Positions 21,617 through 64,000 of a stretch of DNA of 64,000 nucleotides are shown here, one piece after another. The stretch is taken from contig QPGO01000223.1 in the NCBI GenBank assembly GCA_008632985.1, positions 1-64,000 of the forward strand, read 5' to 3'. The position numbers and the translations under genes were made by a program. The DNA comes from Psammoneis japonica. Lineage: Eukaryota. The notes under the pieces are model-generated. The model was given only the letters and a program-made list of their open reading frames with translations. It searched no databases and had not been told where the DNA came from. Positions within the stretch are counted from its first letter, which is position 1. Every line of letters starts with the position of its first letter.

Positions 21617-23027
21617 GCTGATGGTAATAAGAAAATGCTATGCTGCTATAGCAGAGGAAAGAGTCTGATGCTGCTAAGCTTCTGTATGCACAGAGGAGGT
21701 CGAAGCGTAGAGAATAACAAGTCCAGTCAATTCCAGTACTAAGACTGCGTAGAAGTTCACGCACGAATGTCAACAGCGACAAGAGCGATGAATGTATCAA
21801 ACTACAGCGGCAACAGACGCCAATCACTAAGCAGCTATAACACACAGAGGTACAGAACAGCGGTTGCAGTGGATGAGAGTAAGGATGATGATTGAGTCGT
21901 ATGGATGTCAATCGAAAGTCTTCGCTGCTGAGTTTCTGAAAATAATAATTCAGAGAGATTGATTGTTGGGTCTTCTTCGATACAAGCGTTACGAACAAGA
22001 GGCAAAAGTATGACGAAGGCAAGTCAAACCGAACAACACACGCAACAGCCAACTGCAACCGTGAAAGAAAAATCGTGCTTTCGATCAAAGCAAAGTGACA
22101 TGGGCGGTGATTGAAAGCAAGATTCCTACTTTACGTACCAGATACATACCCAAACATACTGGTTTTGTTTGATGAACAGAATTCTATTTTTCACGTTTTG
22201 TTGCGATCAGTCGCTCCTTTCGGATTGGCTGTTGGCGGACATTCTCTCGGCTAATCTTTTCGAAGCTTCAATCTGATTGGCTGACAGACGGGTCGGCTCG
22301 CGATCTCGCTTGCTCTGTATTATTCATGTTTAGGATGATGTGCTTTTGAATTTCTGACTTCTGTCATTTAGTTTGTTGGTTGCAGCTAGCCTGCGAACGC
22401 CAATGATGCCACCGCGTTTGTTGTCTAGCCTCGATGGCTTGGGTGGCATTCACCACAGCTCTCTGCACAAGCCATCCAAAGAAGTTCTGCTGGTTGACTT
22501 GGAACTTGGAAAAGAAACAGGGACAAACAAGGGGGGGCGTGAGGGCGAGGTGGCTTGCCCCCATGCATGTGCCAGGCGCTGAAAAAGAAGATGTGTTACG
22601 ACTTTGTCGTTGTGAAAATTATGAGCTGGTTTAGAGTAGAGAAAATGGGATCGTGCGAATGGGGAATCTTGCCAAATCCCTGTTCGTTCGCATTTGGATC
22701 GCATCAAATCGATCGTGCGTTCGCATTGTGGATCGTGCGAATCAAGCCATCACGCGCCATGCACGAGTGATGTCATCGTGTGGAATCACGCTGCCATCGT
22801 GGGCCAGACGACGGGCCAGTGTGCTTCACACGGATGCTCTCTTGGCATCCTTCTGGAGTTGCCTGAGACCTGGAGCCACGCCCTCCTGTGGTCGTGCTTC
22901 CCAGGTGCGTGTTAACAACACTGCGTTGCCACGCACAAGAGGCTCATGCACGGTCTCGCCGTGTTGTCCAGCAGCGAGGCACACTGCACACTCCCCCATG
23001 ATCAGGGCCATCAAGTGACAGAATGTC

Positions 23028-26000
23028 TTGCTGGTGACAGGGTGCAATCTGCCGTAGATTGTGCGTGTCCATCAGCGCTCCGTTCTGGATGCGCAACGCG
23101 CCGTTGTCACATGCACAGACAACTCTGGCGGGTCCTGCACAGCTGTCAGAACCGCATTTAGAGGATTGTTCCTGTTTGACAAGCACCAACTGCCCTGCGG
23201 CATGTTGATGCTCCTTGCGTTTCTGATTTTCACGCTTGTTGTTTGGGTGGACAAGCTTCTGCTTTCTGGTTTCTGTGTGCTTCCACTTGGCATGATGGGC
23301 AGCAGATGAAACCGCATCGCGTCCGAAGACCAATTGCATGGGACTTGCACACGTGGTCGTGTGTGCCGCAGCTCTAACAGCGAAGGCTGCTGCGGAGAGG
23401 ATGCCACTCCATGGGTCATCTTCGTCCAGTTCCACATCCTGCACTGAAAAGGAACGCACCATGTCACCAAGTGTCTGGTGTGCACGTTCCACTGTGGCAT
23501 TTGCCTGTGGATTCCGTTTGCTTGTGGGTTTCTTCAAAATCCCACAGTCATTTTTAATCATCTGGCTGAATTCTGCCACAAATTCTGTCCCACGGTCACA
23601 AACCACCTGGGTTGGCCACGGATGTCTGCACAGCCACGTTTGTTCCACTACGTTTGCTGCGACGTCTGCGCGTTTCGCAGACACTTCTTTGGTCTCGAAC
23701 CACCCGGTTGCTGGGTCAATCATTGTGACTGCCCACAATTGCAAGGTGTCCTTTCCGCGTCTTTGAATTTTATGTGGCCCCATCATGTCTGTGCACAGAG
23801 TTTCCCATGGAATTGTCTCTGCGACCTTTTCTGGCAGCTTCCCATGACGCTGCGTTCGGCATTTTGTCTTCTGGCATCGATCGCACTTAACGCACGTAGA
23901 ATGCACCGTAGACCTCATGCCAGGCCAATGGAAGTGCTGGGCAACAGATGTTTCCGCACGTGTCTCACCTGGATGACACAGTGTCTCGTGGTGCCATTCA
24001 GTTGGCGGAACCTGCAATGACTGTGGTGCTGCGATTTTGTCCTTATGACAGATTAACTGTCGTGATGACCCTCCCCCACGATGCGCGCGAATGGAGCAGT
24101 CGGACGAGTCCTCAGCTCTTGAGAGCAGGCGCTTGTCCTTTTGTTGTGCTTTTTGAATGCGCTTGAAGCTGACAGGCAGAGACAGCTCATCTTGAGCGTC
24201 TGCATTAAAGGCTTCATGCAAAGGACGACTCGATGGAGTGTCTTTTACATCCGGATTGGCCTCGGAAGGCAAGCTGGGTGCCAGTCGAAGGCGACTAAGA
24301 GCATCAGCGACTGGGTCATGGGTGCCCTTAACACAGCGTAATTCGGGGCCGCATTCTTCGCATGTCAACCGCCAGCGCATGACGCGCTCGGCATTGAATG
24401 CTTTGCACGCAAGATTTTTATGATCAGCACATGTGATTGTACGATGACCAAGGAGAATCGTTCGAAATTCTTTCAACGTCTCCACAATGGCGAGCAATTC
24501 TCTCTCCGTTGTTGTGTGATTTAATTGCGCACCATTGAGCTTTCTGCTGTAAAAGGCGATGGGTTCATTGTCTTGGGATGTGACTGCTCCCAAATGACAT
24601 TTAGAGGCATCGGCATGCATCTCAAAGGGTTCATTAAAATCAGGATGTGACGACAAAACATCATCCGACATCACCCGTTCAACGGTTTCGAACGCCTCGT
24701 CTTCAACGGACGTCCACTCCCACTTGACAGTCTCGCTTGCGAGTCGTGTCAGCGGAGCCAAGACTTCAGAACGTCTAATCCACGTGTCGCGGCAGTGGTT
24801 TGCCATGCCAACAAATGAACGCAGGTCGCGTTCATTGGTTGGGGACTTGTTCCAGACTTGGGTGCACTCACGCGCGAAAAAATGACCCTTTTTGCATGAA
24901 ACGCGCGGTCCACACTTGCGGCACCATTTTCGACAGTAAAAACATAACAATTTACAAATGTGTTGTTATGGGTACATACAGAATTGTCTTGTGCGTGTAC
25001 CCATGTATTCGAAACTGTTGATGGACTCAGTTGTTAGTCGCTAAATTGTACCGTAAGTTGAGAGCTCGAATTTTCCGATGAGCGATTTATATATGCCTAA
25101 ATGTAACTAGAAACATATAAAATATTATTCATAATTAATATTTTGTTTATATACGCAAATACGAGTTACACTCAACGGATCGAATAAAGCATACGTTGAT
25201 TGATAAGTTTAGGACGACGTGAGAAGAAGTGTAGCTCAGCCTACGCAATGGCGTCGACTTCGGACCATTTTTCACGGTTTAAAAGGCATAAACGATTGAT
25301 ACACTTGAATCAGTCGAATATATTGAGGAAATATACATGGTAATAGAAAAGAAATGGTCCTTAGAGGCAAATTGTGAGTGAATAGAGGCTCAATTGTTGT
25401 TGCTGACAGATTTAGCATTATTGTGCCGCGCTGCAGCCTTCAACAAGCATTTTCACTATTGTTGTTGATGACACAGACTATATCAAATACGTAGATCCTG
25501 GTCATGACATTCAATTTTCCATAAGGCTGAAAAAAAGTGGGCCGTCATGGTCACTGAAAGCCATGGCCGGTTTGGCTGTTTGTTTGTTCGAGTTTATTCT
25601 GTTTATTTTACTTAGAAGCCATTGATATGATCAATTTTATTAAATATGTACGGTGTTCAATAAAGCATTAAAAAATTATTTTTTCTGCGAAAAGGGGCAT
25701 GTGCGCGCCACCTAAGTCTGGAACAAGTCTGGGGTCACGATTCGCTCAATGGCGTCGACTTTGTCAGGTGTTGGTCGCATTCCGTCTCTGTCAACCAGAT
25801 GACCCAAGCATTCTAATTGGGTTTGACAGAAGTGAGATTTAGTTGCGTTGACTTTTAGTCCTGCTTTTCTGGACCCTCAACAAAACTTCTTCAAGTTTGT
25901 TGAGGTGATCTTCACAGGTGCCTTTCGTCACGACGAGAAGGTCATCTAAGTGCGTTCGAACGAACGACAGATCTTCAAATGAGCCTGACATGCGTTCTTG

Positions 26001-27140
26001 GAAAATGTCTGGCAAATTGCATGATCCCATGGGCAACACCTGCATCTCATGCTTGCCCCACGGGAAGATGAGCGTGCAGAGCTTCTTGCTGTCAGTGTCC
26101 AATCGGACATGATGGTGGCCCATGTTTAAATCCAGCGATGTAGCCCACACAAAGCCTTCGAGCTTAAGTGGCATGTCTTGGATGTGAGGAATCGGGTGAG
26201 GCAATCGCTCAATCCGTTTGTTCAGCTCTCTGAAATCATCAACAAAGCGTGCCGTTAAATCTTTCTTCGGTGTGACAAATGATGGAGCTGCCCATTGGGA
26301 TCGGTTGATGCGTTTGAGAACACCGATGCGCGCTGGGCGCTCTACTTCCTTACGCAGCGTAGCTTCGCATGCACGAGGTGCTTTACACGGACGAGCATGG
26401 CATGGTTCTACACCCTCCTTGAGTTGGACATGGTGGGGTTCTCCCTTCCATTCTCCCAGTGTCCCATCAAATGAGGACTCATGGCGTTTCAACAGTGCCA
26501 AAAGGTCGTTTTGTTGAACTGTGGAAAGTCCTGTTGCCCCTCGCGTCATGTCCTCGAGGCAGGCCGGCGCGTGCTCAGCGTCTGAAATGTGCAAAATCCG
26601 GTCGGTTTCCAAAGATGAGGCTTCTGGATCTTGAAGATAGAAGGAGGTTTCCACCGCAGCATCTGCGTGCCTCATTGGTGCTTCTCCATTGACCAATGGC
26701 CACTCTGTCATCTGTTCAGAGAAGACAACATCAATGCCTTGTGTCTCCAGAATGTCACGTCCAACAATCACATCGTGCTTGCCCAACTTTCCGTTGTGCA
26801 CGTGGATGGCATGCTTGAGTTCTGCAGTTTCGGATGATTCTGGCAACCGAAATTTAACGGCACAGTCGTTGGACGCACCAAACGAGCCTGCCACCGTAGC
26901 CCGGTTTGTCTCAGCCGTTGAATGGCTTCGCAGACGTTTGCAGCATCGACTGTCGAGTAGAGTGCTGCCAGCGCCACTGTCTGGCAGTGCCTTGACAGTT
27001 TGAGTCTTGCCCTTGCCATGTTTGGCGTTCACAGCTGTGAACAAGATTGGAGCAAGATGAGTCTTTTTAACTCGTTTGCGGGATTGGCCTGCAACACGTG
27101 TACGATGGCAATTCAGTTGTTCATTCATGCATTCATCCAA
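23028..27140 (-). pseudogene. Gypsy pol (copy 1): protease, RT, RNase H, integrase
   Basis: ALPDSGA, WAAPSFVTPKK, DFRELNK, RTHLDD (from YLDD), ADAS, AFYSRKL, TERELLAIVE, HHETLCHPG, DRGTEF, NPQANATVER. Frameshift at ~25860 and MITE insertion. Confidence 0.9.
24844..25729. mobile_element. Non-autonomous TIR element (MITE), 886 bp
   Basis: 21-bp TIR GACTTGTTCCAGACTT(G/A)GGTG and 4-bp TSD TGGG. The empty site is present in gypsy copy 2 (~56575-56590). AT-rich non-coding interior. Confidence 0.92.
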
Positions 27141-27176
27141 TGCATTAAAACTGCCTGTGTTGTGTCGGCCCCCTTC

Positions 27177-28253
27177 TCAGGCGTCCGAATCTTCGGAATC
27201 ACTTGAGTTGAGGTCGCGGAAGTGATTGAGCTCCTCCTCGCGGGCCTTGCGCTTTTTCTGAGCGTTGGCAAAGTGCTCCTCGACCTTCGATCCGATGAGA
27301 GCATTAATGTCTTCCTCATTCCGAGGTTTTGCACCAGGCTTGCCGCCTCCATCATTGGAATGTCCAGTCTTGACACGTTTCACGCGGTGCTTGAGCTGAC
27401 GGCAATCTTCCGCATCATGTCCACAGTTAGTCCCGTGCAGCATGCACGGCTTCTGGGTGTTCCACTGGGTCGTGATCAATGACTCAGGATTGTCCATTCT
27501 ACGTCCCCGCTTACGTGGAACCTCAGCATGTTGGTCCTGGTTACCTTCGGCAAGCTCGACCTGCTCGATGCGCTCGCAGAACTGTGCAAATTCGGCGACA
27601 GCATGCACCAACGGGTCAAAATTCTGTAGCGTCATGAACTTCTGCCATGCGTTCGGCACACCGCACTCGAACACATCGCATGGTTCGTCATTGGGCAATG
27701 GCGCCAGTGTTTCTCCATCCTCCGTCATGGGTGGAAACTGAGAGATGCAGCCGTTAATTTCAACAGCCCTCGCGATGCAGTCACGAGTAGAAACCTCTGC
27801 GGGCTTGCGCATGAAGCGCCGCAGATGACGTTTCTGCAGCAGTGCCGCCCCATTTGGGAAGATGCTTTCCTTTAGCTTCGCGACGCATGCTGCGTACGCA
27901 GCATTGGTTTGGGACACCTGCTTGTCAGCGGCATTGTCAAATGACGTCAGAGCATCGCCCTGCAGCAAGTCACGCATGAGGGCAAATTTCGCTGGCCCGG
28001 TCGTGATGTTTTGTCCTTCGTGCACGCGATCCACGTTGCGTAGAAAGATTGGGAGTGTCTCGCATGTAGCCGCAGAAAGGTGCGGGATGCCCATCTCGTG
28101 CGTTGGACTGTCCGGATCAGCAGGGTTGTTACGCAGCTTGAACGTCTGGCACTCGCCCTGCTGCAGCTCTTTCTTCTCCGGCCATGCGAACGGAATCGGC
28201 GGCATGATCCGCTTCTTCATGGTCGTTTTGAGATTTGTCGGTCCTGCCAACAT
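27177..28253 (-). pseudogene. Gypsy gag (copy 1)
   Basis: 358-aa ORF directly after the 5' LTR with a C-x2-H-x5-H-x4-C knuckle (CMLHGTNCGHDAEDC); homologous to 54136-55140. Confidence 0.85.
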
Positions 28254-29418
28254 TTCGTAGTTTTGTTTCTGTAGATTTCGTTACCTCGCACAACATGCGG
28301 GAGCAACCTGTGCCCCATGTGTGTGCCAGGTGCTGAAAAAGAAGATGTGTTGCAACTTTGTCGTTGTGAAAATTGTGAGCTGGTTTAGAGCAGAGAAAAT
28401 GGGATCGTGCGAACAGGGAATCTTGCCAAATCCCCATTCGTTCGCATTTGGATCGCATTAAATCGATCATGCGTTTGCATTGTGGATTGTGCGAATCAAG
28501 CCATCACGCGCCATGCACGAGTGATGTCATCGTGTGGAATCACGCTGCCATCGTGGGCCAGACGACGGGCCAGTGTGCTTCACACGGATGCTCTCTTGGC
28601 ATCCTTCTGGAATTGCCCAAGACCTAGAGCCACGCCCTCCTGTGGTTGTGCTTCCCAGGTGCGTGTCAACAATGCTGCGTTGCCACGCACAAGAGGCTTG
28701 TGCACGGTCTTGCCGTGTTGTCCAGTGGCGAGGCATGCTGCAGGCTGCTCTGGACCAGCAAATTGGGGATGACTGCCCAACAGCCACCTGCTTTCTGTGC
28801 AGTCCACATCTCATTGACTTTTTCATTGCAGTTGTGCAGTCACTGTGGTTGGCATTTTCCTGCACCACATCTCTTGCTGCTGGCCTGTTCCAACAGCAGC
28901 TCCAGGTGATGTGCGCGCAGGTTTGGCTCCCACCGCTGGCCCATTTTTGCATTTGGTGCAACAAACTCCTTCAAAATTGGTTTTTTTTCAAGTTGAAGGG
29001 TGACTGCACGCCGAGCAAATCTAGCTGCCGAATGGGCTCAGCCACTCACAGTCTTAGTGCGACAATGCGAATGCAACCGACAAGATGCTTCCAGGCCTGT
29101 TGCAACTACAACGGATGCAACAAGTGAGACCAACCGATGGTCATGGTCACTTTTCCACCGATGCCACGTCACAGTCCCGCCACTTCAACTTGTAGAGCGC
29201 ACTGGACAGACTCTGACACATCGGATTTCACTCGGTCCCCTCGAAATGCACCTGACTCGTAAGGCACAATTCAACCCAATGCTGCATCAGTGATCTAGCT
29301 CAAACATCTTGACTCATTGATCGACGTAAAACCCTTGCCAGGGAAAAGCCGCCAATCCTTTGTGCATGGTGTAAACCCTCACTGGGGAAGAAACTCACCA
29401 CCGCTTCACGCATCCATC

Positions 29419-33681: not shown

Positions 33682-33720
33682 GAAGTTTATGATGCAACCA
33701 AGCAGGGTCCAGCTTGGCAG

Positions 33721-35842: not shown

Positions 35843-35844
<2 letters not shown>

Positions 35845-35872
<28 letters not shown>
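35845..35872. repeat. (AG)n microsatellite
   Basis: About 14 uninterrupted AG units. Confidence 0.95.
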
Positions 35873-35878
<6 letters not shown>

Positions 35879-49050: not shown

Positions 49051-50764
49051 CACACCCATTCATCGGTTAATGGTCAAGAACCCTGCACATTCAAGGATCT
49101 TCGTCGCTGAAGACACACACACATGTGCGTGTCTTCACGGCTGAGAACTTGCACCCACTCTTCGGACTGCGGTTTTGCTGCCACTCTGCGAGCACACCGA
49201 GTCTGTTGCACCTGATCTGCCCCGGACCGCTGGTGCTCTGCAGTTCTGCTGGGTCCACGAGGATGACTGTGAGAGCAAGCAGCCGTGATTGCAGCCTGCG
49301 TTGGGGCGAGGGTGTTTTCCCACGTTTGTTCGTTCGTCCACAGTGCCCAACGCCTGCATCAACTGGCCAGCCTGATCGGGAAATCCAACCGACAAAAAAC
49401 ATGAACGGTTCGGGGGGTCTTGTCCACCTCCAGTCAGCTCACCTGCAGGGGTTTACAACCCGCCACTCCGCTCGCAAGCAACCCAAAAGCGCCGCTGGCT
49501 GCAGGTTCGGACGTGCCGGCACAACTCTGCGGACCAGATGGGAGGTTTGGCACTTGACAACGAACGGGATGGCACAGCCCGGCGACTTCTGAATTTAAGG
49601 TGGTTCAAGATTTCAAGTCAAGTCCATTTCAAGTCAAGTCCATTCTCACCCAAGTTTCAAGTCTGCCTTTGCTTCACAACAAGAATTGCTTGTCCTGACA
49701 CCACTTTTGTCCACCATGGTTCTCACTCGTCAGCAACAAACCGATGGTTTCGAGCACGTTGTTGGAACCGTGCTTGCCCAAGGTGCTGGGAGCCCTCTTC
49801 GTTTGGCTTTGACCCAAGACGGCACAGACTCGCATCAAGAACTGTTCACGTTCATGCCGTCCCAAATCGACTCGCTTGAGTGCGACAACGGCGCCAATGT
49901 GATCCCTTTGCCCCGCGGTTGTAAGAACATGTCAGCAGCTCTAATCAGTCTGTACATTGTCAAAGCACACGAAGGTCTTGACGTTGCCAATGACTCCTCA
50001 TTGTTCGTGCATGATGAGTTCCTTGCCTGCCGCCTCAGTCCCGACTGCATGTCTTCTGTGTCTGTCGGCAGCTCACCCCTCGCACCTCCGCATGTCACCA
50101 ACCCGACCAAGACACACGACCCGGTGCGAGACTTCAAGCGAGGCATCAAGCGTGACTCCACCGCTTTCACGGCTCTCAAATCCGACAAGCAGTGGCACAC
50201 TTGGCACACCTCACTTGTGGCACAAGCCCGTGCCCAAGACGTCAAGTGCACTCTAGACTCGTCGTACAAACCGACCAGCCCCGAAGACAAACTGCTCTTT
50301 GCTGAACAGCAAAAGCACATGTTCGCTGTCTTCGAACGCATCCTTCTCACCGACAAGGGCAAGGCTCTCATTCGCGAAAATGTGGGGTCTTCTGATGCCC
50401 AGACCATCTGCCGCGCCTTGTCTGAGCATGCGCTCACCTCCACCCACGCATCTGTCGAGTCCTCCACCTTGCTCACGCACCTCACCACCGCACGTCTTGG
50501 TGATGGCACTTGGAAAGGTCCGACCCACGGGTTCATCCTTCATTGGCAAGATCAGTTGCGCAAGTGCGAGGCACTCATCCCGGCCAGTGACCACTTCTCT
50601 GAAGGACAGAAGCGCGTCATGCTCGAGAATGCCGCACACCCTGTCGAGGAACTCCGTGCTGTCAAGAACCAAGCTGATCAGCATCGTGCACAGAGTGGCA
50701 AGAGCCTCACATGCGATCAATGCTGTGGCTTGCTCCTCTCTGCGGCTGCTCAATGCAACAGCAT

Positions 50765-51260
50765 GGGGCTTCGACCAGCATAAAATGCAATGTGACACAA
50801 TCATTGACATGTAAAAAACATTGATGTGATTTGTTGATGACGTGCATGCAAGAATGTTGAATGACTGCGTGTGACTTTTTGCGCAAGATTTGCACTGTTC
50901 TATGCACTTAACGAAGAAAATGCTGAGGCAATGCATGGAATGTCTCTCTTTAAGTACGAATTCAAATGAAGGTCATGCCCACGCCTGCCACGCAATTCAA
51001 TCAAACACACGAGCATGTGTGAAGCATTTTTCAAAGACGGAGTTGACAAACGGAGTGTCGACGGTTGAATGTGTGACATCTACAAAAACATCTAAATGGT
51101 TGAAAAGTGTGGACTTTTGTGAGACATTTGTGCATGTAACACATGCAAAACCTGCCATTTGTTTTGGCAATGACCGTCATCGTCAAACAAAGGGGCACAT
51201 AAAATCCAATGCAAAATGTCTGACCGGTGCAACAGGTGCGTTTCTGCCAGTCGTAGCCTC
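50765..51260. mobile_element. Old non-autonomous TIR element (~496 bp, possibly Sola-like) inserted in copia gag
   Basis: Imperfect TIRs: GGGGCTTCGACCAGCATAAAATGCA versus reverse complement GAGGCTACGACTGGCAGAAACGCA. Gag-like sequence resumes after it. Confidence 0.65.
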
Positions 51261-53642
51261 ACACGTTTCAACCCAAGATGACACCTCGAGCTCCCCGACG
51301 TGCCATGTGCGCACACGACGTCTGCTCCGAGGAACCGTCCGACGATGTGTTCTGCAACATTGACAGCGACATTGACGTCCTTCAGGCCAATGCTGCCTGC
51401 ACCCGTGGTCCCAGCCTCGCCGGTGACCAATGGAAATGTCTCCCTCCCGACCACCAACAGATTTGGGATTCGTTGCCCCATTCCTCCAAGGCGATCATCC
51501 TTGAGCATTCTCGTCCGCCTCCCCACAACCCGCGAGCCAGCAACTGCCATGAGTCCGTTGCGGCCAACCTTCACGACCAACGCCTTGGGAGTGACGGTGA
51601 TGTCAACTTGTCCAACACGACTCCTGCTGACTCTGGTGACCCCGCTCCAAATGTGGGTGCCACTTCGGACAATCCCATCCTGGCGCACCTCACCAAGCGC
51701 AAGCCACTGCCACCCGGTGATCTGCAATGTCTGTTGTCTCCTAACCAAGCCCCCAACGCCAGTCAACCGGGGCCATCCGCCGCTCCCTCTACTCCGCCAG
51801 CTGCTGCCGATGACATGGAACTTAACGGCCGCACTTGCCGCCGCGTTGATGACCACAATGTCATTTGCTCTGCCTCTGCTCATCGCTCCACACGCACTGG
51901 TGCTCCAGTCGATCGTGGGGCCAATGGCGGCATTGCTGGCAACAACGTTTGCATCATTGCACGCACCTCTTGCCAAGTCGACGTTCAGGGCATTGACGAC
52001 CATCAATTGGTGGACATCCCCATTGTCGCCGCTGGTGCCGTCATTGAGACCCAGCGTGGTCCCGTCATTGCCATCCTCCATCAGTGCGCATGCACGGGCA
52101 AGGGCAAGACCATCCATTCCTGCGGCCAGCTCGAATGGCACAAACAGGATGTCAACGATCGCTCTGTCAAGGTGCCCAACGGCTTGCAACGTGTTGCCAC
52201 TCCTGATGGCTGTGTCATCCCCATTGACATCAAGGGCGGCCTGCCTTGTGTTGCCATGCGACCTTGCACTGATGCCGAATGGGACACCCTGCCCCATGTC
52301 ATCCTCACCGGTGATGACACATGGGATCCTTCCGTCCTCGATCACTCTGTCACTGACGACGACCAGTGGTGCGACGCGATCTCTGACCTGCAGGACGATC
52401 CCACTGCCAACCCATTTGACGAATGCGGCAACTGCCGTCATCGTGTTGTTGTCAACGAGACCATCATGTCCGCTTCCTTGTCTGCCGATCACGCGTCCGC
52501 CCTCGATGATCACCTCATTCCAAATGACGACGTGTTCTGTGAGTGTCATCCACACGCGATTGACCCCAAGGATGACAACGTTCCGCCCCCGGAGTGCACT
52601 GTGCAGCCCAAGGACCCCCCCTTCGAGTCTCTTCGGCCTTGCTTTGGCTTCCTCCCTGCCGATGCGGTCCGTCGCACTTTTGACTGCACCACGCAGTGCG
52701 TCCGCATGCCCGCCGGCACACACCTTAGGAAGGCCTGCAAATCACCCAACCCCGCCCTTAATGTGCACCGCCGCAACGAGCCTGTCGCCACTGACACCGT
52801 TTGTGCCGACACCCCGGCCGTCGACTCTGGTTGCGCCAGCGCCCAACTGTTTGTTGGCACCAAGTCTACCGTCACTGACGTCTGCGGCACCAAGACGGAC
52901 AAAGAGTTTGTCAACACACTCGAGGATCAGATCCGGGAGCGTGGTGCCCCATCCAAACTCATCAGCGACCGTGCTCAAGTTGAGATCAGCAACAAGGTGC
53001 TCGGGATCCTACGAGCCCTCTTCATCTCCAGCTGGCAAAGTGAGCCTCACCAGCAACACCAAAACTTTGCCGAGCATCAACACCAGACCGTGAAGCGCAT
53101 GGCGAACACTGCAATGGATCGTTTTGGTTTGCCCGCCCACACATGGCTGCTGGCGCTCATGCATGTGTGCTTCACACTCAACCACACAGCATCCCCACAT
53201 CTCCACTGGCGCACGCCCCTCGAGACTCTCACTGGCTCCACCCCGGACATCAGCCCATTGCTTCGCTTTCACTGGTGGGAACCTGTGTGCTTCCACCTCG
53301 ATGACTCCGATTGGCCGTCCGAATCCCGTGAGTTGCGTGGATGCTTTGTTGGCATTGCTGAGCACGTTGGCCACCAGATGACCTTCAAGATTCTCTCTGA
53401 CGAGACTCAGAAGATCCTCTGCCGGTCCAACGTACGATCCGCTGCCACCGATCCTGCCATTCGAAACCTGCGTCTTGATCCTCCTGATGGGGAGCCACCT
53501 GAACCCATCATCAAATCTCGCCATGACGACAACCCCGTCGATTCTCCTGATGGGGAGATCAGGACACCCAAGATGCCAGTTTTCGATCCGCAAGACATCA
53601 TTGGACGCACCTTCCTCATGCAGCCACAAGAGGACAGACAAC

Positions 53643-56600
53643 TGCAGTGTGCCTCGCTGCTGGACAACACGGCGAGACCGTGCGTGAGCCTCTTGTACGT
53701 GGCAACGCAGTGTTGTTAACACGCACCTGGGAAGCACGACCACAGGAGGGCGTGGCTCTAGGTCTCAGGCAATTCCAGAAGGATGCCAAGAGAGCATCCG
53801 TGTGAAGCACACTGGCCCGTCGTCTGGCCCACGATGGCAGCGTGATTCCACACGATGACATCACTCGTGCATGGCGTGTGATGGCTTGATTCGCACGATC
53901 CACAATGCGAACGCACGATCGATCCAATGCGATCCAAATGCGAACGAATGCGGATTTGGCAAGATGCCCTGTTCGCACAATCCCATTTTCTCTACTCCAA
54001 ACTAGCTCACAATTTTCGCAACGACAAAGTCGCAACACATCTTCTTTTTCAGCGCCTGGTGCACACACAGGGCACAGCAATGTCACTCCCGCATGTTGTG
54101 CGAGGCAACGAAATCTACAGAAACGAAACTACGAAATGTTGGCAGGACCGACAAATCTTAAAACGACCATGAAGAAGCGGATTAAGCCGCCGATTCCGTT
54201 CGCACGGCCGGAGAAGAAAGAGCTGCAGCAGGGCGAGCACCAGACGTTCAAGCTACGTAACAACCCTGCTGATCCGGACAGTCCAACGCACGAGATGGGC
54301 ATTCCGTGCCTTTCTACGGCTACATGCGAGACACTCCCAATCTTTCTACGCAACGTGGATCGCGTGCACGAAGGACAAAACATCACGACCGGGCCAGCGA
54401 AATTTGCCCTTGTGCGTGACCTGCCACAGGGCGATGCTCTGACGTCATTCAATGATGCCGCTGACAAGCAGGCATCCCAAACCAACACTGCGTGCGCAGC
54501 ATGCGTCGCGAAGCTAAAGGAAAGTGTCTTGCCACACAGGGCAGCACTGTTGCAGAAGCGTCATCTGCGGCGCTTCATGCGCAAGCCCGCAGAGGTTTCT
54601 GCTCGTGACTGCGTCACGAGGGCTGTTGAAATTAACGGCTGTGTCTCTCAGTTTCCACCCGTGACAGAGGATGGAGAAACACCGGCACCATCACCTGATG
54701 ACGAACTGTGTGACATGTTTGAGTGCGGTGTGCCGAACGCATGGCAGAAGTTCATGACGCCACAGAATTTTGACCCGTTGGCACATGCTGTTGCCGAATT
54801 TGCACAGTTCTGCGAGTGCACCGAGCAGGTCGAGCTCACCGAAGGTAACCGCGACCAACATGCTGGGGTCCCACGTGAGCGGGGACGTAGAACGGACAGT
54901 TCTGAGTCGTTGATCACGACCCAACCGAACACCCACGTGAAATGTGTCAAGACTGGACATTCCAGCAATGGAGGCAGCAAGCCTGACACAAAACCTCGGA
55001 ATGAGGAAGATGTCAACACTCTCATCGAATCGAAGGTCGAGGAGTTCTTTGCCAACGCTCAGAAAAAGTGCAAGGCACGCGAGGAGGAGCTCAATCACTT
55101 CCGCGACCTCAACTTAAGTGATTCCAAAGACTCGGACACTTGCCGACACGACACAGGTGGTTTTAACACATTGGATGAATGCATTGATGAACAACTGAAC
55201 TACCATCGTACACGTGTTGCAGGCCAATCCCGCAAACAAGTTAAAAAGACTCATCTCACTCCAATCTTGTTTGTGGCTGTGAATGCCAAACATGGCAAGG
55301 GCAAGACTCAAACTGTTGAGGCACTGCTGGATGGTGGCGCCAGCAGCACTCTACTCGACAGTCGACACTGCAAACGTCTGCGAAGCCATTCAACGGCTGA
55401 GACAAATTGGACCACGGTGGCAGGCTCGTTCAGTGCGTCTGACGACTGCACCGTTAAATTTCGGTCACCAGAATTGTCCGAAACTGCAGAACTCAAGCAT
55501 GCCGTCCATGCACACAACGGAAAGTTGGGCAAGTGCGATGTGATTGTTGGGGTGTGACATTCTGGAGACACAAGGCATTGATGTTGTCTTCTCCAAACAG
55601 ATGACAGAGTGGCCATTGGTCAATGGAGAAGTGCCAATGAGGCACGCAGATGCTACGGTGGAAAACCTCCTTCTATCTTCAAGATCCAGAAGCCTCATCT
55701 TCGGAAACCGACCGGATTTTGCGCATTTCAGACGCCAAGCACGTGCCGGCCTGCCTCAAGGACATGACGCGAGGGGCAATGGGACTTTCCACAGTTCAAC
55801 AAAACGACCTTTTGGCACTGTTGAAACGCCATGAGTCCTCATTTGATGGGACATTGGGAGAATGGAAGGGAGAACCCTGCCACATCCAACTCAAGGAGGG
55901 TGCAGAACCATGCCACGCTCGTCCATGTAAAGTGCCTCGTGCGTACGAAGCTGCGCCACGTAAAGAAGTAGAACGCCTGGCACGTGTCGGTGTTCTCAAA
56001 CGCGTCAACCGATCCCAATGGGCAGCTCCATCATTTGTCACACCGAAGAAAGATTTAATGGCACGCTTTGTCAATGATTTCAGAGAGCTGAACAAACGGA
56101 TCAAGCGATTGCCTTGTCTGATTCCTCATGTCCAAGATGTGCCACTTGAGCTCGAAGGCTTTGTGTGGGCTACATCGCTGGATTTAAACATGGGCCATCA
56201 TCACATCCGATTGGATGCTGACAGCAAAAAAGCTCTGCACGCTCATCTTCCCGTGGGGCAAGCATGAGATGCAGGCATTGCCCATGGGACTGTGCAACTC
56301 GCCAGACATTTTCCAAGAACGCATGTCAGGCTCATTTGAAGATCTGTCGTTCGTTCGAACGCACTCAGATGACCTTCTCGTCGTGACGAAAGGCACCCAC
56401 GAAGATCACCTCAACAAACTTGAAGAAGTTTTGTTGAGGGTCCAGAAAGCAGGACTAAAAGTCAACGCAACTAAATCTCACTTCTGTCAAACCCAATTAG
56501 AGTGCTTGGGTCATCTGGTCAACAGAGACGGAATGCGACCAACACCTGATAAAGTCGACGCCATCAAGCGAATCGCGACCCCAACCAACAAACGTGACCT

Positions 56601-58851
56601 CCGTTCATTTGTTGGCATGGCGAGCTGCTGCCGCGACACATGGATCAGATGTTCTGAAGTCTTGGCTCTGCTGACACGACTCGCAAGCGAGACTGTCAAG
56701 TGGGAGTGGACGTCCGTTGAAGACGAGGCGTTCGAAACCGTCAAACGGGTGACATCGGATGATGTTTCACCGTCACAACCTGATTTTAACAAACCCTTTG
56801 AGACACATGCCGATGCCTCTAAATGTCAATTGGGAGCAGTCACATCCCAAGACAATAAACCCATCGCCTTTTACAGCAGAAAGCTTGACAGTGCGCAATT
56901 AAATTGCACAACAACGGAGAGAGAATTGCTCGCCATTGTGGAGACGTTGAAAGAATTTCGAACGATTCTCCCTGGTCATCGTGTGATCATGTGTGCTGAT
57001 CATAAAAATCTTACGTACAAAGTGTTCAATGCTGAGCGCGTTATGCACTGGCGGTTAACATGCGAAGAATGCGGTCCCGAATTGCGCCATGTCAAGGGTG
57101 CCCACAACCCAGTCGCTGACGCTCTTGGTCGCCTTCGACTGGCACCCAGCTTGCCTTCCGAGGCTAATCCGGATGTAAAAGACACTCCATCGAGTCGTCC
57201 TTTGCATGAAGCCTTTAATGCAGACGCTCAAGATGAGCCATCTCTGCCTGTTAGCTTCAAGCGCATTCAAAAAGCACAACAAAAGGACAAGCGCCTACTC
57301 TCACGAGCTAAGGACTCGTCCGACTACTCCATTCGCGCGTATCGTGGGGGAGGGTCATCACGACAGTTAATCTGTCATAAGGACAAAATCGTAGTACCAC
57401 AGTCATTGCAGGTTCCGCTAACTGAATGGTGCCACGAGACACTGTGTCATCCAGGTGAGACACGTACGGAAATATCTATTGCCCAGCACTTCCATTGGCC
57501 TAGCATGAGGTCTACGGTGCATTCTACGTGCGTTAAGTGCGATCGATGCCAGAAGACAAAACGCCGAACGCAGCGTTATGGGAAGCTACCAGAAAAGGTC
57601 ACAGAGATAATTCCATGGGAGACTCTATGCATAGATATGATAGGGCCATATAAAATTCAAAGACGCGGAAAGGACACCTTGCAATTATGGGCAGTCACAA
57701 TGATTGACCCAGCAACCGGGTGGTTCGAGATTAAAGAAGTGTCTACGAAACGCGCAGACGTCGTAGCAAACGTCGTGGAACAAACGTGGCTATGCAGATA
57801 TCCGTGGCCAACCCAGGTAGTTTATGACCGTGGGACAGAATTTATGGCAGAATTTAGCCAGATGATTAAAAATGACTATGGGATTTTGAAGAAACCCATA
57901 AGTAAACGGAATCCACAGGCAAATGCCATAGTGGAACGTGTACACCAGACACTTGGTAACATGGTACGTTCCTTTTCAGTACAGGATATGGAACTGGACG
58001 AAGATGACCCATGGAGTGGCATCCTCTCCGCAGTAGCCTTCGCTATTAGAGCTACGGTACACACGACCACGCGTGCAAGTCCCATGCAATTGGTCTTCGG
58101 ACGCGATGCGGTTTTATCTATTGCCTATTTCGCTAAGTGGAAGTGCATAGAAACCAGAAAGCAGAAGCTTATCCACTTAAACAACAAGCGTGAAAATCAG
58201 AAACGCAAGGAGTATCAATATACCGTAGGGCAATTGGTACTTATCAAACAGGAACAATCCTCTAAATACGGTTCTGACAGCTATGCAGGACCCGCCAGAG
58301 TTGTCGGCACGTTGCGTGTCCAGAACGGAGCGCTGATAGATACGTACAATCTACGGCAGATTGTACCCTATCACCAGTAAGACATTCTGTCACTTAACGG
58401 CCCTGATCATGGGGGAGTGTGCAGTATGCCTCGCTACTGGACAACACGGCGAGACCGTGCATAAGCCTCTTGTACGTGGCAACGTAGCATTGTTAACACG
58501 TACCTGGGAAGCACGACCACAGGAGGGCGTGGCTCTAGGTCTTAGGCAATTCCAGAAGGATGCTAAGAGAGCATCCGTGTGAAGCACACTAGCCCGTCGT
58601 CTGGCCCACGATGGTGGCGTGATTCCACACGATGACATCACTCGTGCATGGCGCGCGATGGCTTGATTCGCACGATCCACAATGCGAACGCACGATCGAT
58701 TTAATGCGATCCAAATGCGAGCGAATGGGGATTTGGCAAGATCCCCTGTTCGCACGATCCCATTTTCTCTACTCTAAACTAGCTCACAATTTTCACAACG
58801 ACAAAGTCGCAACACATCTTCTTTTTCAGCGCCTGGCACATGCACAGGGCA
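53643..58851 (+). mobile_element. Ty3/gypsy LTR retrotransposon, copy 2 (same family as copy 1), nested in copia pol
   Basis: 432-bp LTRs at 53643-54074 and 58420-58851, TSD CAAC (53639-53642 / 58852-58855), PPT at 58411-58417. Gag from 54136; pol ends at TAA 58378-58380. Confidence 0.96.
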
Positions 58852-60625
58852 CAACGCCACAGAGCTCGCATCGTCAAGGCCGTCGAAGACCATGAATGGA
58901 AAGTGAGTGGCAATCCCAAGCTCACCAAGTTCGTCTGCTCTGTCAACAACGACAAATGCGAGGAAGTCCTTGCCTGCGACGACATCATGAATCACATTGA
59001 GCAAGAAGACGAAGACACTGCTGTTTGGAAATTTCGATGCATCGTGTCACACGAAGGACCTCTGAAGCCTCATGACCCAACCTGGAAAGGCACAAGCTAC
59101 AACATCATGCTTGAATGGGAAAGTGGGGAGATCACGTCCGAGCCTCTTGCCATCATCGCCAAGGATGACCCCATCACCTGCGCCATCTGTGCACAAGAGA
59201 ACGGACTTCTCGACACTGATGGCTGGAAGCAGTTCCGCACCATTGCGAGGTGCCAAAAGAAGCCATTTCGCATGGCCAACCAAGCCAAGCTTCACTCCTT
59301 CCGCACTGCACCTCGCTGCAAGTGCGGATGCGAAGTTCCCCGGAACTGCAAACACGCCATGTCACTGGACGAACGCAACGGCAACCGCAAATGGGGAGAC
59401 GCAACTAATCTCAAGATGGACCAACTCAAGGAATACGAAGTCTTCCATGACTGTGGGCCCTTCAAGTCTTCCACTCCTCCTGCGGGACACAAGAAGATCC
59501 GAGTGCACCTGGTGTACGACGTGAAACACGACGGTCGCCACAAGGCACGACTCGCAGCCGATGGGCACCTCACGGACGCACCCATCGACAGTGTCTGCTC
59601 CAGAGCAGTCTCCCTCCGTGGCCTTCGGCTGATGATTTTCCTGGCCAAACTCAACGAGTTGGAGACATGGGCCACTGACATTGGCAATGCCTGCCTTGAA
59701 GCCACCACCAAGGAGAAGCTCTGCATTGCAGCCGGACCCGAATTTGGCAAACTCGAAGGACACATCCTTGTCATCCACAAGGCCCTGCATGGACTGCGCA
59801 GCTCTGGTCTCCACTGGAGAAGGGTGACCACCCCGAACTGGACACTTCCGAACTGCTGGGGCCCGATGGCATTCACAAGTTCCAGCCTCTTGTTGGTTCA
59901 CTCCAATGGGCAGTGTCCCTTGGTCGAATTGACATTGCCACGGCCATCATGTCACTCTCTAGCTTCCGAGCTGCGCCCCGTCAAGGCCACTTGGATCATG
60001 CCAAACGCGTCTGTGGGTGCCTCTCCAAGATGCGACACGGCGCTCTCCACCTTCGCACGGAAGAGCCCGACCACTCGGATCTCCCTGCTCTGGCCTGTGA
60101 GTGGATGCATTCCGTGTGCGGCGAAGCAGAAGAGAAGATCCCGAAGGACGCTCCACCGCCCCTTGGCAAGTTCGTCACTGCCACCCACTGCGTCGATGCA
60201 AACTTGTGCCATTGCATGCTCACCGGACGCTCTGTCATGGGAGTGCTCCACTTCCTCAACAAATTCCCGGCTGATTGGTGTCAGTGGGATCGGCGTCCTG
60301 GGAAGGCGATGGGGAAGAACCACGAGGCATCATCATGGTCGAGTCGACAAAACGCGTGTTTTTTGTGCGGAGAAAAAGAGCTCCCGAAAGTGCGCTTCCG
60401 ACCCCTCGGTTTTTGGTGGTTAGAGTTTTAGGGGAGCTGTGGAATAGGAATTTTTACTTATGGAATATACACATTCGTGTGAATGTTAACATTAAAACTC
60501 AACGCACGGCGAAGCCGTGCGCGCACAACCACGCACACACACACAGCTCCCCTACCACAGGGGTGGGACAAAATATCCGGCATTGTCGAATTTTTACATC
60601 AGCATAAATCATAAAATTCAGAACG

Positions 60626-63269: not shown

Positions 63270-64000
63270 CGCCCCTGCATAGATTCATCACAATGCAAAA
63301 TCCATGCATGCCCATCCTCATTGACCAAGAATTCATCTGCCGGTTCTTTTAGAAAAAAAGCATGTCAAGCAAAAATGGATTTCTTTGCACTGGAAGGCAA
63401 GAGACATTGAATCTTTTTGCCTTTGGGTTTTGTCAGTGCTAGTGCCATTTTTGTTGCCATGGCTCCTGCCCTTTGCAAAAAGGAGCATTTTTGTTTTCTT
63501 GTGGTTTGAGCATCACCCTGCCTGATGAGATGATTGCAAAGTCATGCAACATGTTGTGAAGATGTGAGCTGCAGTGCTGCTGCATGGAGAGACACCAGCT
63601 TGCAACAAGCTTTAGTTGTTTTGGTTTTGTTGGTGCCACCCAGTGCCAAGAAAACACACACCTGCTGGTTGCACCAGGGTCAAGTTCTTCCATGAATTTG
63701 CTTCTCATCTTGTGACTTGAGATGATGCCTTGGGGCATTGTTTTGTGACACATGTGGCCCCCTGTTTAGCTCCAGCTGCAGAAGCTTTTTCTTGGGCATT
63801 TCTCAGTGTGCCAGACCTGTTGTGTCAGACCTTGAAGTCTGTCACCAAATGCTTGTCCTGAGCTGAGGTCATCAGGTCGTGCACATCATTTTTTTTGCAG
63901 CGGAGCTCTGCACTCAGCCTCTTCTTGGCAAGCAGTGGACTGGCTCATGACAGTGTTGCCTCTCAGGCACAACACTCGAACTCTAAAGACAGCACAGATG
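63270..64000. other. Start of another decayed repeat block (TpA- and CpG-depleted)
   Basis: Abrupt loss of TA and CG dinucleotides after ~63290; no recognisable domain. Confidence 0.45.

What the first reader, a model, noticed from the sequence alone, without database searches (positions are those of the whole stretch)
57250..58600. A ~1.35 kb tract of gypsy copy 2 escaped the hypermutation
Seen: within one element TpA reappears from ~57250 into the first part of the 3' LTR. The integrase reads canonically (CRYPWPTQVVYDRGTEFMAEF...EYQYTVG...VPYHQ*), while the upstream RT/RNase H of the same copy and the same region of copy 1 (CRHPWPTQVVCDRGTEFVAEF...EHQHAAG...APCHQQ) are converted. A few sites inside are still edited (WCHE at ~57430). 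Inference: the mutator works in kb-scale patches, or the tract was repaired by gene conversion from an unedited active copy. Either way it preserves near-ancestral sequence.
Basis: partly seen in the sequence, partly recalled or inferred. Interest (0 to 1): 0.75.

Follow-up and report, generated by a model that had tools for sequence, protein, structure and literature searches.

The report
Unedited patch in hypermutated diatom retrotransposon
A 1.3-kb piece of a dead jumping gene in a diatom genome kept its original spelling while nearly every 'TA' around it was rewritten to 'CA' or 'TG', most likely because that piece was later recopied from an unmutated relative; it gives a clean before-and-after view of a rare DNA-mutating defence.

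Summary
Gypsy copy 2 (53643-58851) keeps TpA at 86 of 90 inferable ancestral TpA sites between 57252 and 58590. Elsewhere it keeps 55 of 164 (p=2e-24). Copy 1 (22556-28742, inverted) has CA (38) or TG (37) at 75 of those 86 sites.

Thirty outgroup integrases show the TA-rich state is ancestral: 46 of 56 differing residues match copy 2.

The background process is a strand-symmetric TpA->CpA/TpG hypermutation acting on DNA after integration. It hits the repeats in this window and spares the host genes. The host is a diatom. The only description I found is a 2026 preprint on Bigelowiella natans.

Why the tract is unedited cannot be settled with two copies and no reads. I favour homologous replacement after editing, by gene conversion from an unedited copy or its cDNA (0.45). 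My reasons:
- It is the only island of its kind in about 41 kb of edited repeats.
- Its left edge is a mosaic.
- The homologous 5' LTR part is edited.
- The LTRs show an independent exchange.

Local escape (0.2) and an assembly or haplotype chimera (0.18) remain open.

The parts
53643..58851 (+). Ty3/gypsy LTR retrotransposon, copy 2. It is nested in a copia-like element. The target-site duplication CAAC lies at 53639-53642 and 58852-58855.
   Evidence: LTR pair (D3). TG..CA ends and the TSD were read. Removing copy 2 plus one TSD makes the host copia ORF continuous. Pfam finds RVT_1, RT_RNaseH, Integrase_H2C2 and rve in that order.
53643..54074 (+). 5' LTR of copy 2. It is edited throughout, including the part homologous to the unedited start of the 3' LTR.
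   Evidence: at the 12 TA sites that the 3' LTR keeps in columns 14-215, the 5' LTR has CA or TG at 9.
57252..58590 (+). The unedited tract. It covers the integrase part of pol, the stop at 58378-58380, the polypurine tract and the first ~170 bp of the 3' LTR.
   Evidence: 86 of 90 inferable TA sites are unedited. TA/(TA+CA+TG) is 0.30, as in host genes.
57003..57251 (+). Mosaic left edge: 57003-57056 unedited (one edit at 57023), 57083-57126 heavily edited, 57165-57216 unedited, 57239 edited.
   Evidence: The heavy patch includes edits in contexts that resist editing elsewhere (T-TA-A, T-TA-G).
57430..57431 (+). One of four edited sites inside the tract (the others are 58144, 58317 and 58488). 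All four are in the G-TA-Y context.
   Evidence: 4 of 18 G-TA-Y sites are edited against 0 of 72 other sites (Fisher p=0.0012). Outgroups have Tyr at this codon in 29 of 29.
58304..58305 (+). Site of a private 15-bp in-frame deletion in the copy 2 integrase C-terminus.
   Evidence: copy 1 and 12 of 12 outgroups shown keep 5-6 residues here.
58420..58851 (+). 3' LTR of copy 2. It is unedited up to 58590 and edited from 58615.
22556..28742 (-). Gypsy copy 1, inverted relative to copy 2, with TSD AGCC. The stretch homologous to the tract is 22818-24171 and is edited at 79 of 90 sites.
24845..25734 (-). An 890-bp AT-rich insertion with ~20-bp terminal inverted repeats, MITE-like, inside the copy 1 pol gene. 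It is not TpA-depleted.
   Evidence: Gap in the alignment. TIRs read by eye. TA o/e is 0.94 at 25001-25500. It splits the outgroup match at one residue.

Best explanation
Both gypsy copies integrated largely unedited. A DNA-level mutator then rewrote them, converting TpA to CpA or TpG one site at a time on either strand. It prefers T-A-pyrimidine and stops at the ends of repeats.

The 57252-58590 tract of copy 2 has a different history from its flanks. After most of the editing, it was replaced by homologous recombination with an unedited member of the same family. The donor was either a chromosomal copy (non-allelic or allelic gene conversion) or a cDNA from a still-active element. Patchy repair of the heteroduplex left the mosaic left edge. 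Afterwards the tract received only a low dose of the mutator, at its four most susceptible sites.

Shown: the tract, the polarity of the change, editing after integration, the context preference, and the exchange signal between LTRs.
Inferred: the replacement event itself, its donor and its timing.
For: (1) Editing happened on DNA after integration. The two LTRs of copy 1, identical at integration, carry opposite edits at 8 of 17 sites edited in both. The copy 2 LTRs do so at 4 of 9.

(2) The copies were edited independently. There are 85 CA/TG discordant sites upstream of the tract, spread evenly: the longest gap is 294 bp against a simulated 95% limit of 302. At conserved Tyr codons, 11 of 16 are concordant, which is not above a context-bias expectation (p=0.2).

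(3) Editing is otherwise thorough. The only TA-normal segments in the window are host genes, a later MITE-like insertion, and this tract. That MITE shows that DNA arriving after the editing stays unedited.

(4) The first ~170 bp of the 3' LTR are unedited, while the homologous part of the 5' LTR is edited at 9 of 12 sites. The rest of the same 3' LTR is edited. The two LTRs are each other's partners, so lack of a homologous partner cannot explain this.

(5) The left edge alternates unedited and heavily edited patches of 50-100 bp. Patchy mismatch repair of heteroduplex DNA gives such a pattern; this step rests on general knowledge.

(6) An independent sign of exchange in this family. The copy 2 5' LTR and the copy 1 3' LTR share the edit direction at 10 of 10 sites in columns 14-215 and at 0 of 6 beyond. 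P=0.002 under the context model. The contrast gives p=0.00012. The test is post hoc; Bonferroni over 12 comparisons gives about 0.02.

(7) All four in-tract edits sit in the most susceptible context. G-TA-Y sites are edited at 4 of 18 in the tract, against 18 of 18 in copy 1. This fits a short, recent exposure.

(8) A 1.3-kb length is ordinary for a conversion tract (general knowledge). Ty1 cDNA is known to enter genomic Ty1 copies by RAD52-dependent homologous recombination (PMC3002893, abstract and passages read).
Against: No donor was found. There is no other family copy in the window. No protein above 69% identity turned up among 1717 and 915 hits. The exact 40-mer is absent from metagenome contigs. 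No whole genome is held.

A 'younger tract' test was inconclusive. Non-TpA divergence from copy 1 is lower in the tract (16/1339) than upstream (106/3354, p=6e-5). But the adjoining, fully edited 56657-57326 is also low, at 10/670.

Only about seven of the 16 non-TpA differences in the tract could be polarised: 6 are derived in copy 1 and 1 in copy 2. Three of the six look like off-target changes next to edited TA sites. This has no power.

The model needs an unedited donor that survived, or arrived, after copy 2 was edited. It also needs a second, separate exchange to explain the 5' LTR pattern.

Which segment is resident and which is imported cannot be told from two copies.
Confidence: 0.45

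Rival explanations
1. Local escape. Copy 2 has always carried this sequence, and the mutator was kept off this 1.3 kb, about 40-fold, by something local such as chromatin state, lack of a guide RNA, or a transcript-defined domain.
For: The mutator draws sharp borders elsewhere. There is no TA for 460 bp up to 60421, then 9 in the next 75 bp. A sharp edge is therefore within its repertoire.

In Bigelowiella natans the same signature is confined to defined regions and is active in only some lines, so targeting is regional and regulated.

The four in-tract edits at the most susceptible context fit a reduced dose as well as a short exposure.

The right edge lies ~170-195 bp into the LTR. That could be the U3/R border, which would make the tract the 3'-terminal part of the element's transcript. 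This is speculation; the border was not mapped.
Against: It is the only such hole in about 41 kb of edited repeats.

Edit directions show no runs: 40 runs against 38.5 expected. Editing is therefore many independent single-site events, and protection would have to last through all of them.

The 50-100 bp alternation at the left edge includes heavy editing of resistant contexts at 57083-57126. That is hard to get from a domain.

The homologous part of the 5' LTR and the same region of copy 1 were both edited.
Confidence: 0.2
2. Assembly, polishing or haplotype-switch chimera. The tract belongs to another copy or to the other homologue (diatoms are diploid; general knowledge) and was written into this locus by the assembler or polisher.
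For: Repeats of 90-95% identity are where such errors occur. Patchiness at the 50-100 bp scale on the left edge is about the length of a short read. All 4 single-base indels between the copies lie in homopolymer runs, as expected of long-read errors, though also of natural slippage. The shared edit pattern between two LTRs could also be cross-talk.
Against: Matching 4-bp TSDs and a continuous host ORF show the element as a whole is correctly placed.

The chimera would still need an unedited source that is absent from, or collapsed in, the assembly, and only for the 3' 1.3 kb.

The tract carries its own 4 edits, opposite in direction to those of copy 1.

Confidence: 0.18
3. Reverse import. Copy 2 is a young element that integrated after the editing episode, as the MITE did, and most of it was later overwritten by gene conversion from old edited copies. 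The tract is what remains of the original.
For: The U3 part of the copy 2 5' LTR carries exactly the edit pattern of the copy 1 3' LTR, 10 of 10 sites, as if copied from it. Edited copies should outnumber unedited ones as donors.
Against: Conversions covering about 75% of the element would be needed. The internal edited part is not copied from copy 1: there are 85 discordant sites, evenly spread. The R-U5 parts of the two copy 2 LTRs carry opposite edits at 2 of 7 sites.
Confidence: 0.08
4. The whole 'editing' is a base-calling artefact at a modified base in TpA within silenced repeats, and the tract is simply unmodified.
For: If reads of each strand miscalled one base of a modified TpA, a consensus would give TG or CA. 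The homopolymer indels hint at long-read data.
Against: Strand-majority calling would give long runs of one direction. Observed are 40 runs against 38.5 expected.

Purely context-driven miscalls would make the two copies agree, yet 85 sites disagree.

None of the 86 sites reads CG in copy 1.

The copies also differ by about 3% non-TpA changes, indels and a transposon insertion.

The same signature was found by Illumina mutation-accumulation in B. natans, and in one unrelated metagenomic contig, L059.
Confidence: 0.04
5. Selection kept a domesticated integrase gene intact.
For: The ORF 56188-58380 is open.
Against: The non-coding TA sites from 58395 to 58590 are as unedited as the coding ones, at 12 of 13. 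The ORF's upstream half is edited. The ORF is open because this mutator removes TAA and TAG and creates no new stops.
Confidence: 0.01

Closest known systems
TpA-specific T/A->C/G hypermutation of integrated viral DNA in Bigelowiella natans (Mettrop et al., bioRxiv 10.64898/2026.01.13.699255; abstract, Results and Discussion read)
   Same: The changes are only TpA->CpA or TpG, on either strand. They are confined to foreign or mobile DNA, and host genes keep normal TpA. The long-term signature is TpA loss with CpA+TpG gain. That paper also lists TpA-depleted reverse-transcriptase and DDE coding sequences.
   Different: The host here is a diatom (stramenopile), not a chlorarachniophyte. The targets are LTR retrotransposons edited to near saturation: about 80-88% of TpA sites, with window o/e of 0.03-0.2, against 0.45 for their NCLDV region. 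A 3' pyrimidine preference is measurable here.
Repeat-induced point mutation (RIP) of Neurospora and other fungi
   Same: It acts on DNA after integration, marks repeats, spares single-copy genes, affects both strands, is dinucleotide-specific and has sharp limits at repeat ends.
   Different: The chemistry runs the opposite way. RIP makes TpA from CpA, lowers GC and creates stop codons. Here TpA is destroyed, GC rises and TAA/TAG stops are removed. Dependence on repeats is not shown here: the multi-copy status of the unedited MITE is unknown, and the B. natans target is single-copy.
Recombination of retrotransposon cDNA or ectopic copies with resident elements (Ty1 in yeast; PMC3002893, abstract and passages read)
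   Same: Replacement of part of a resident LTR element by sequence from another family member, without a new integration, would leave the TSDs and flanks intact, as seen here.
   Different: No donor or cDNA is observed here. The process has not been documented in diatoms, as far as my searches went.
ADAR hyper-editing of repeat-derived double-stranded RNA
   Same: A->G changes with a 5' U preference. The preprint itself notes this.
   Different: Both DNA strands are hit equally (38:37). The two LTRs of one element differ, so the change is made after integration. The 3' neighbour preference is pyrimidine (54/90 against 21/82). My recollection is that ADAR favours a 3' G.
APOBEC editing of LTR retrotransposons in vertebrates (PMC4866542; search listing and abstract start only)
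   Same: Deaminase-type hypermutation fixed in genomic copies of LTR elements.
   Different: APOBEC gives C->U on minus-strand cDNA before integration, hence strand-biased G->A. Here the change is A/T->G/C, symmetric and after integration.

Membership tests
Ty3/gypsy (Metaviridae) LTR retrotransposon | Two direct LTRs ending TG...CA, flanked by a short target-site duplication | tested here: met
   The LTRs are 432 bp and 94% alike. TGCAG...GGGCA is flanked by CAAC/CAAC in copy 2 and AGCC/AGCC in copy 1.
Ty3/gypsy (Metaviridae) LTR retrotransposon | Pol domain order protease-RT-RNase H-integrase (integrase last) | tested here: met
   In copy 2: RVT_1 at residues 28-109, RT_RNaseH at 199-291, Integrase_H2C2 at 403-460 and rve at 478-576 of one ORF. 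rve scores 28.2 bits, below its 32.6 cut-off. An aspartyl-protease match in copy 1 is weak, E=0.003.
Ty3/gypsy (Metaviridae) LTR retrotransposon | Polypurine tract directly upstream of the 3' LTR | tested here: met
   ATGGGGGAG lies at 58409-58417, three bases before the LTR start at 58420. The primer-binding site was not identified.
TpA-directed hypermutation as in B. natans | Changes are T->C or A->G and fall on TpA only | tested here: met
   In the tract, 75 of 75 copy 1 changes at copy 2 TA sites give CA or TG. Only 16 other differences occur in 1339 bp, a few of them T->C right next to an edited TA.
TpA-directed hypermutation as in B. natans | Polarity is loss of TpA, not gain | tested here: met
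   Outgroups agree with the TA-rich copy at 46 of 53 decided residues (p=4e-8). CA/TG discordance at the same site needs a TA ancestor. Related elements have a median TA o/e of 0.79.
TpA-directed hypermutation as in B. natans | Confined to foreign or mobile DNA; host genes spared | tested here: met
   TA-normal segments hold an ISWI ATPase, a TPR protein, a PhyH-like gene and an FAD-oxidase-like gene (names by eye and). Depleted segments hold gypsy and copia elements and other repeats.
TpA-directed hypermutation as in B. natans | Ongoing, measurable de novo mutation; enzyme identified | not testable with these tools
   No reads, strains or whole genome are available. The enzyme is unknown in B. 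natans too; an ADAT2 homologue is only a candidate.
RIP (fungal repeat-induced point mutation) | C->T at CpA producing TpA excess and lower GC | tested here: not met
   The direction is the reverse: TpA o/e is 0.03-0.2 and CpA+TpG o/e is 1.4-2.0 in repeats.
ADAR-type RNA hyper-editing copied back into DNA | A->G on the transcribed strand only, present before integration (both LTRs alike) | tested here: not met
   The strands are hit 38:37. The LTRs of one element carry opposite edits.
Gene-conversion tract | A donor sequence identical to the tract exists elsewhere | not testable with these tools
   There is no copy in the window, no genome, and no close relative in the protein or metagenome collections.
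Gene-conversion tract | Flanks and insertion site unchanged; kb-scale length; patchy end | tested here: met
   The TSDs are intact, the tract is 1339 bp, and the left edge is a mosaic. These features are compatible with conversion but not exclusive to it.

The most novel reading that the evidence does not exclude
The tract is a true protected domain, and it shows that the diatom's TpA mutator is aimed by a guide with sharp ends. The guide could be, for example, an RNA or chromatin mark that covers the element except the 3'-terminal ~1.3 kb of its transcript up to the U3/R border. Editing would then be programmable in kb-scale units. This would be an adenine-deaminating, RIP-like genome defence in a second eukaryotic supergroup, with a readable targeting rule.
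Probability: 0.15. Interest if true: 0.85.

Novelty: new member of a known kind. Interest (0 to 1): 0.6.

Why it matters
The tract preserves the pre-mutation sequence next to two independently mutated versions of it, so it works as an internal standard for a barely described mutator. From this one locus the following can be read:
- The mutator hits only TpA, on both strands equally (38:37).
- It acts as independent single-site events, with no runs.
- It prefers a 3' pyrimidine (54/90 against 21/82).
- It saturates G-TA-Y sites (18/18) and spares T-TA-A sites.
- It acts after integration and stops sharply at repeat ends.
- It cripples proteins by missense changes (Tyr->His/Cys and others) while erasing stop codons.

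The host is a diatom. My searches found the signature described only for a chlorarachniophyte. If it is real, it extends a candidate adenine-deamination genome defence to a major algal group.

If the tract was imported, an unedited and possibly active family member exists or existed, and edited elements can be partly restored by recombination.

Tried and rejected
No whole genome is held.

Search for an unedited or sister copy, all negative:
- The search for homologous proteins, near and longer lengths: best identity 69%.
- An exact 40-mer in metagenome contigs: 0 hits.
- blastn of copy 2 against the window: only copy 1.

'Is the tract younger?' from non-TpA divergence. It is significant against the element-wide rate, but the neighbouring edited 670 bp are equally low, so I set this test aside. 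Polarising the 16 non-TpA differences gave too few decided sites.

Shared edits between the copies, which would mean editing before their divergence. Eleven of 16 conserved-Tyr codons are concordant, not above expectation. No long block free of discordant sites lies outside the tract.

Reverse-transcription recombinant made from one edited and one unedited RNA. Rejected: it would give both LTRs the same unedited U3, but the 5' LTR U3 is edited.

Unequal crossover between two elements. Rejected by the matching TSDs and the continuous host ORF.

Strand-coordinated, processive editing. Rejected by the runs test.

Earlier notes of this scan held nothing on this genome or this signature.

Full report
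WHAT IS THERE.

The window holds two copies of one Ty3/gypsy LTR retrotransposon in inverted orientation. Copy 1 is at 22556-28742 on the minus strand and copy 2 at 53643-58851 on the plus strand. Each has 432-bp LTRs ending TG...CA and its own 4-bp target-site duplication: AGCC for copy 1 and CAAC for copy 2. Copy 2 sits inside a copia-like element. Removing copy 2 and one duplication makes that element's reading frame continuous.

Pfam finds RVT_1, RT_RNaseH, Integrase_H2C2 and rve in that order. rve is just under its cut-off.

The host is a diatom. An ISWI-type ATPase ORF in the TA-normal part of the window is 70-76% identical to proteins named for pennate and other diatoms, and under 50% identical to proteins of other stramenopiles.

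THE BACKGROUND SIGNAL.

About two thirds of the window is almost free of TpA (o/e 0.03-0.2) and enriched in CpA+TpG (o/e 1.4-2.0).

A simple segmentation leaves only these TA-normal stretches:
- 11.4-22.4 kb, 36.9-38.6 kb and 60.3-63.3 kb. These carry ordinary host genes: the ISWI ATPase, a TPR protein, a PhyH-like gene and an FAD-oxidase-like gene (names partly by eye).
- 24.8-25.9 kb.
- 57.1-58.6 kb, the finding.

The shifts are abrupt. For example, there is no TA for 460 bp up to 60421, then nine in the next 75 bp.

The two gypsy copies differ almost only by transitions. Upstream of the tract, 85 sites read CA in one copy and TG in the other. That pattern needs a TA ancestor edited independently in each copy. 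A second repeat pair (29012/35439) shows four such sites in 223 bp.

CHECK OF THE OBSERVATION.

Between 57252 and 58590, copy 2 has TA at 86 of the 90 sites where an ancestral TA can be inferred. Copy 1 has CA at 38, TG at 37 and TA at 11 of those 86. In the rest of copy 2, 109 of 164 inferable sites are edited (odds ratio 42.6, p=2e-24). Sites edited the same way in both copies are invisible to this count, in and out of the tract alike.

Four sites in the tract are edited in both copies, in opposite directions: 57430, 58144, 58317 and 58488.

The right edge lies between 58590 and 58615, inside the 3' LTR. The left edge is a mosaic:
- 57003-57056: unedited, apart from 57023
- 57083-57126: edited at 6 of 6 sites, including contexts that usually resist
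- 57165-57216: unedited
- 57239: edited
- from 57252: unedited

The site map shows no comparable run anywhere else in either copy.

POLARITY.

Thirty integrases of related elements (54-70% identical, mostly from metagenomes) agree with copy 2 at 46 of the 56 residues where the copies differ. They agree with copy 1 at 7, and 3 are ties (p=4e-8).

I then looked at codons where at least 60% of 29 outgroup polyproteins have tyrosine.
- Inside the tract, copy 2 keeps Tyr at 9 of 11 and copy 1 at 0 of 11.
- Outside, copy 2 keeps 3 of 20 and copy 1 keeps 1 of 20. The rest read His or Cys.

Seventy-seven of 78 related metagenomic loci have TpA o/e of 0.56-1.17, with a median of 0.79. The TA-rich state is therefore ancestral, and the process is TpA->CpA/TpG.

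The tract is near-ancestral but not pristine. It has a private 15-bp in-frame deletion at 58304 and a derived CpG->CpA at 57601.

WHAT THE TRACT REVEALS ABOUT THE MUTATOR.

Taking copy 2 as the 'before' state and copy 1 as the 'after' state over 86 sites:
- The two strands are hit equally (38 CA, 37 TG).
- Directions show no runs (40 runs against 38.5 expected), so the edits are independent single-site events.
- The edited A prefers a 3' pyrimidine: C 28/46 and T 26/44, against A 11/38 and G 10/44 (Y against R p=7e-6).
- G-TA-Y sites are saturated (18/18 in copy 1). T-TA-A sites often survive (4 of 7).
- None of the 86 sites became CG, as expected if one edit destroys the target on both strands.

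The two LTRs of one element, identical at integration, carry opposite edits at 8 of 17 (copy 1) and 4 of 9 (copy 2) of the sites edited in both. The editing therefore acts on integrated DNA, not on the RNA intermediate.

The mutator removes TAA and TAG and creates no new stops. That is why edited elements keep very long open frames, and why the copy 1 stop now reads Gln.

From memory, not from a call: a U-A-C context recalls the anticodon-loop target of TadA/ADAT-type tRNA adenosine deaminases, more than it recalls the 3'-G preference of ADAR. The B. natans authors propose an ADAT2 homologue as a candidate.

WHY IS THE TRACT UNEDITED?

Five facts bear on this.

(a) It is the only hole of its kind in about 41 kb of edited repeats. 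The other island inside a gypsy copy, 24845-25734 in copy 1, is an 890-bp AT-rich insertion with ~20-bp terminal inverted repeats that is absent from copy 2. It is DNA that arrived later and stayed unedited.

(b) The first ~170 bp of the copy 2 3' LTR are unedited. The homologous part of its 5' LTR is edited at 9 of 12 sites, and the rest of the same 3' LTR is edited.

(c) The left edge alternates between unedited and heavily edited patches of 50-100 bp.

(d) The copy 2 5' LTR and the copy 1 3' LTR share the direction of editing at 10 of 10 sites in alignment columns 14-215 and at 0 of 6 beyond. P=0.002 allowing for context bias, and the contrast gives p=0.00012. The test is post hoc; about 0.02 after correcting for 12 comparisons. 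Edited sequence seems to have been exchanged between LTRs of this family.

(e) The four edits inside the tract all sit in the most susceptible context: 4 of 18 G-TA-Y sites against 0 of 72 others (p=0.0012). This is the mark of a small dose of the same mutator.

Together these favour a tract that was replaced after the bulk of the editing, by recombination with an unedited family member or with its cDNA. This is known for Ty1 (PMC3002893). I put this at 0.45.

A locally protected domain (0.2) would need stable and very sharp protection through many independent events. It does not explain (b) or (c) easily.

An assembly, polishing or haplotype-switch chimera (0.18) explains (c) and perhaps (d). 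All four single-base indels between the copies lie in homopolymers, so some long-read error cannot be excluded.

The mirror-image history is a young copy 2 largely overwritten from edited copies (0.08). It is not excluded but needs many events.

A base-modification calling artefact (0.04) is contradicted by four observations: the lack of runs, the disagreement between the copies, the absence of CG calls, and the Illumina-based precedent.

Selection on a domesticated integrase (0.01) is contradicted by the equally unedited non-coding sites, 12 of 13 from 58395 to 58590.

TESTS THAT DID NOT DISCRIMINATE.

Non-TpA divergence from copy 1 is lower in the tract (16/1339) than upstream (106/3354, p=6e-5). 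But the adjoining, fully edited 56657-57326 is equally low (10/670).

Edits do not appear to be shared by descent between the internal parts of the two copies. Both copies were therefore inserted essentially unedited.

No donor or sister copy was found in any collection.

COMPARISON WITH WHAT IS KNOWN.

The mutational signature matches the one reported in 2026 for two integrated viral regions of Bigelowiella natans. That report also notes TpA-depleted reverse-transcriptase and DDE coding sequences.

Six full-text searches found no other description, and none for diatoms:
- General searches.
- Searches with 'diatom'.

The library lacks most subscription journals, so this is not proof of absence.

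Compared with fungal RIP, the logic is alike but the chemistry is reversed. ADAR and APOBEC models fail on strand symmetry and on timing.

An unedited island inside an edited element is what one gene-conversion event would leave. I did not find such a case described for this mutator.

VERDICT.

The claim that the tract is near-ancestral is supported. The choice between a patchy mutator and conversion leans towards conversion but stays open.

I rate the finding 0.6. Its mechanism is probably ordinary recombination. Its value is as a calibration standard for a barely known, probably adenine-deaminating, genome defence, seen here in a diatom.

Noticed in passing
window 1-11400, 22556-24844, 25735-36900, 38600-57000, 58615-60420, 63300-64000: Nearly all repeats in the window have lost TpA (o/e 0.03-0.2) with CpA+TpG gain, while host genes keep normal TpA. 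This TpA->CpA/TpG hypermutation in a diatom was found in print only for Bigelowiella natans. The target A prefers a 3' pyrimidine.
   Followed up: partly
window 24845-25734: An 890-bp AT-rich (GC ~0.37) element with ~20-bp terminal inverted repeats is inserted in the pol gene of gypsy copy 1 and absent from copy 2. It has normal TpA, so it arrived after the editing or is not a target.
   Followed up: partly
window 53643-53850 and 22780-22988: The first ~200 bp of the copy 2 5' LTR and of the copy 1 3' LTR share the same edit direction at 10 of 10 sites, then at 0 of 6 further on. This looks like an exchange of already-edited sequence between LTRs about 30 kb apart in inverted orientation.
   Followed up: partly
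window 51257-53642 and 58856-60423: A copia-like element, also TpA-depleted, is split by gypsy copy 2. Its ORF reads through once copy 2 and one CAAC are removed. Its TpA-free state ends abruptly at about 60421.
   Followed up: partly
locus L059 (1518 bp metagenome contig): One of 78 related gypsy loci from metagenomes is TpA-depleted (o/e 0.19, against 0.56 for the next lowest). It reads His or Cys at four conserved tyrosines of the integrase, so the same signature occurs in at least one other, unidentified organism.
   Followed up: partly
window 28309-28742 (copy 1 5' LTR): This LTR alone carries 7 private CpG->TpG/CpA changes, against 0-2 in the other three LTRs. Cytosine-methylation decay seems to be patchy among copies.
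   Followed up: no
window 29012-29234 and 35439-35661: A second direct repeat pair 6.4 kb apart, possibly the LTRs of another element, shows four CA/TG discordant sites in 223 bp. This is the same independent editing of two repeats.
   Followed up: partly
window 1362-2497 and 180-443: Tandem repeats of 279 bp (4 copies, 76-94% alike) and 132 bp (2 copies) lie in TpA-depleted sequence.
   Followed up: no
c1/c2 alignment at 55549, 55662, 56226, 56445: All four single-base indels between the two gypsy copies lie in homopolymer runs of 3-6 bases. They are either natural slippage or long-read consensus errors, which bears on how far the assembly can be trusted in repeats.
   Followed up: no
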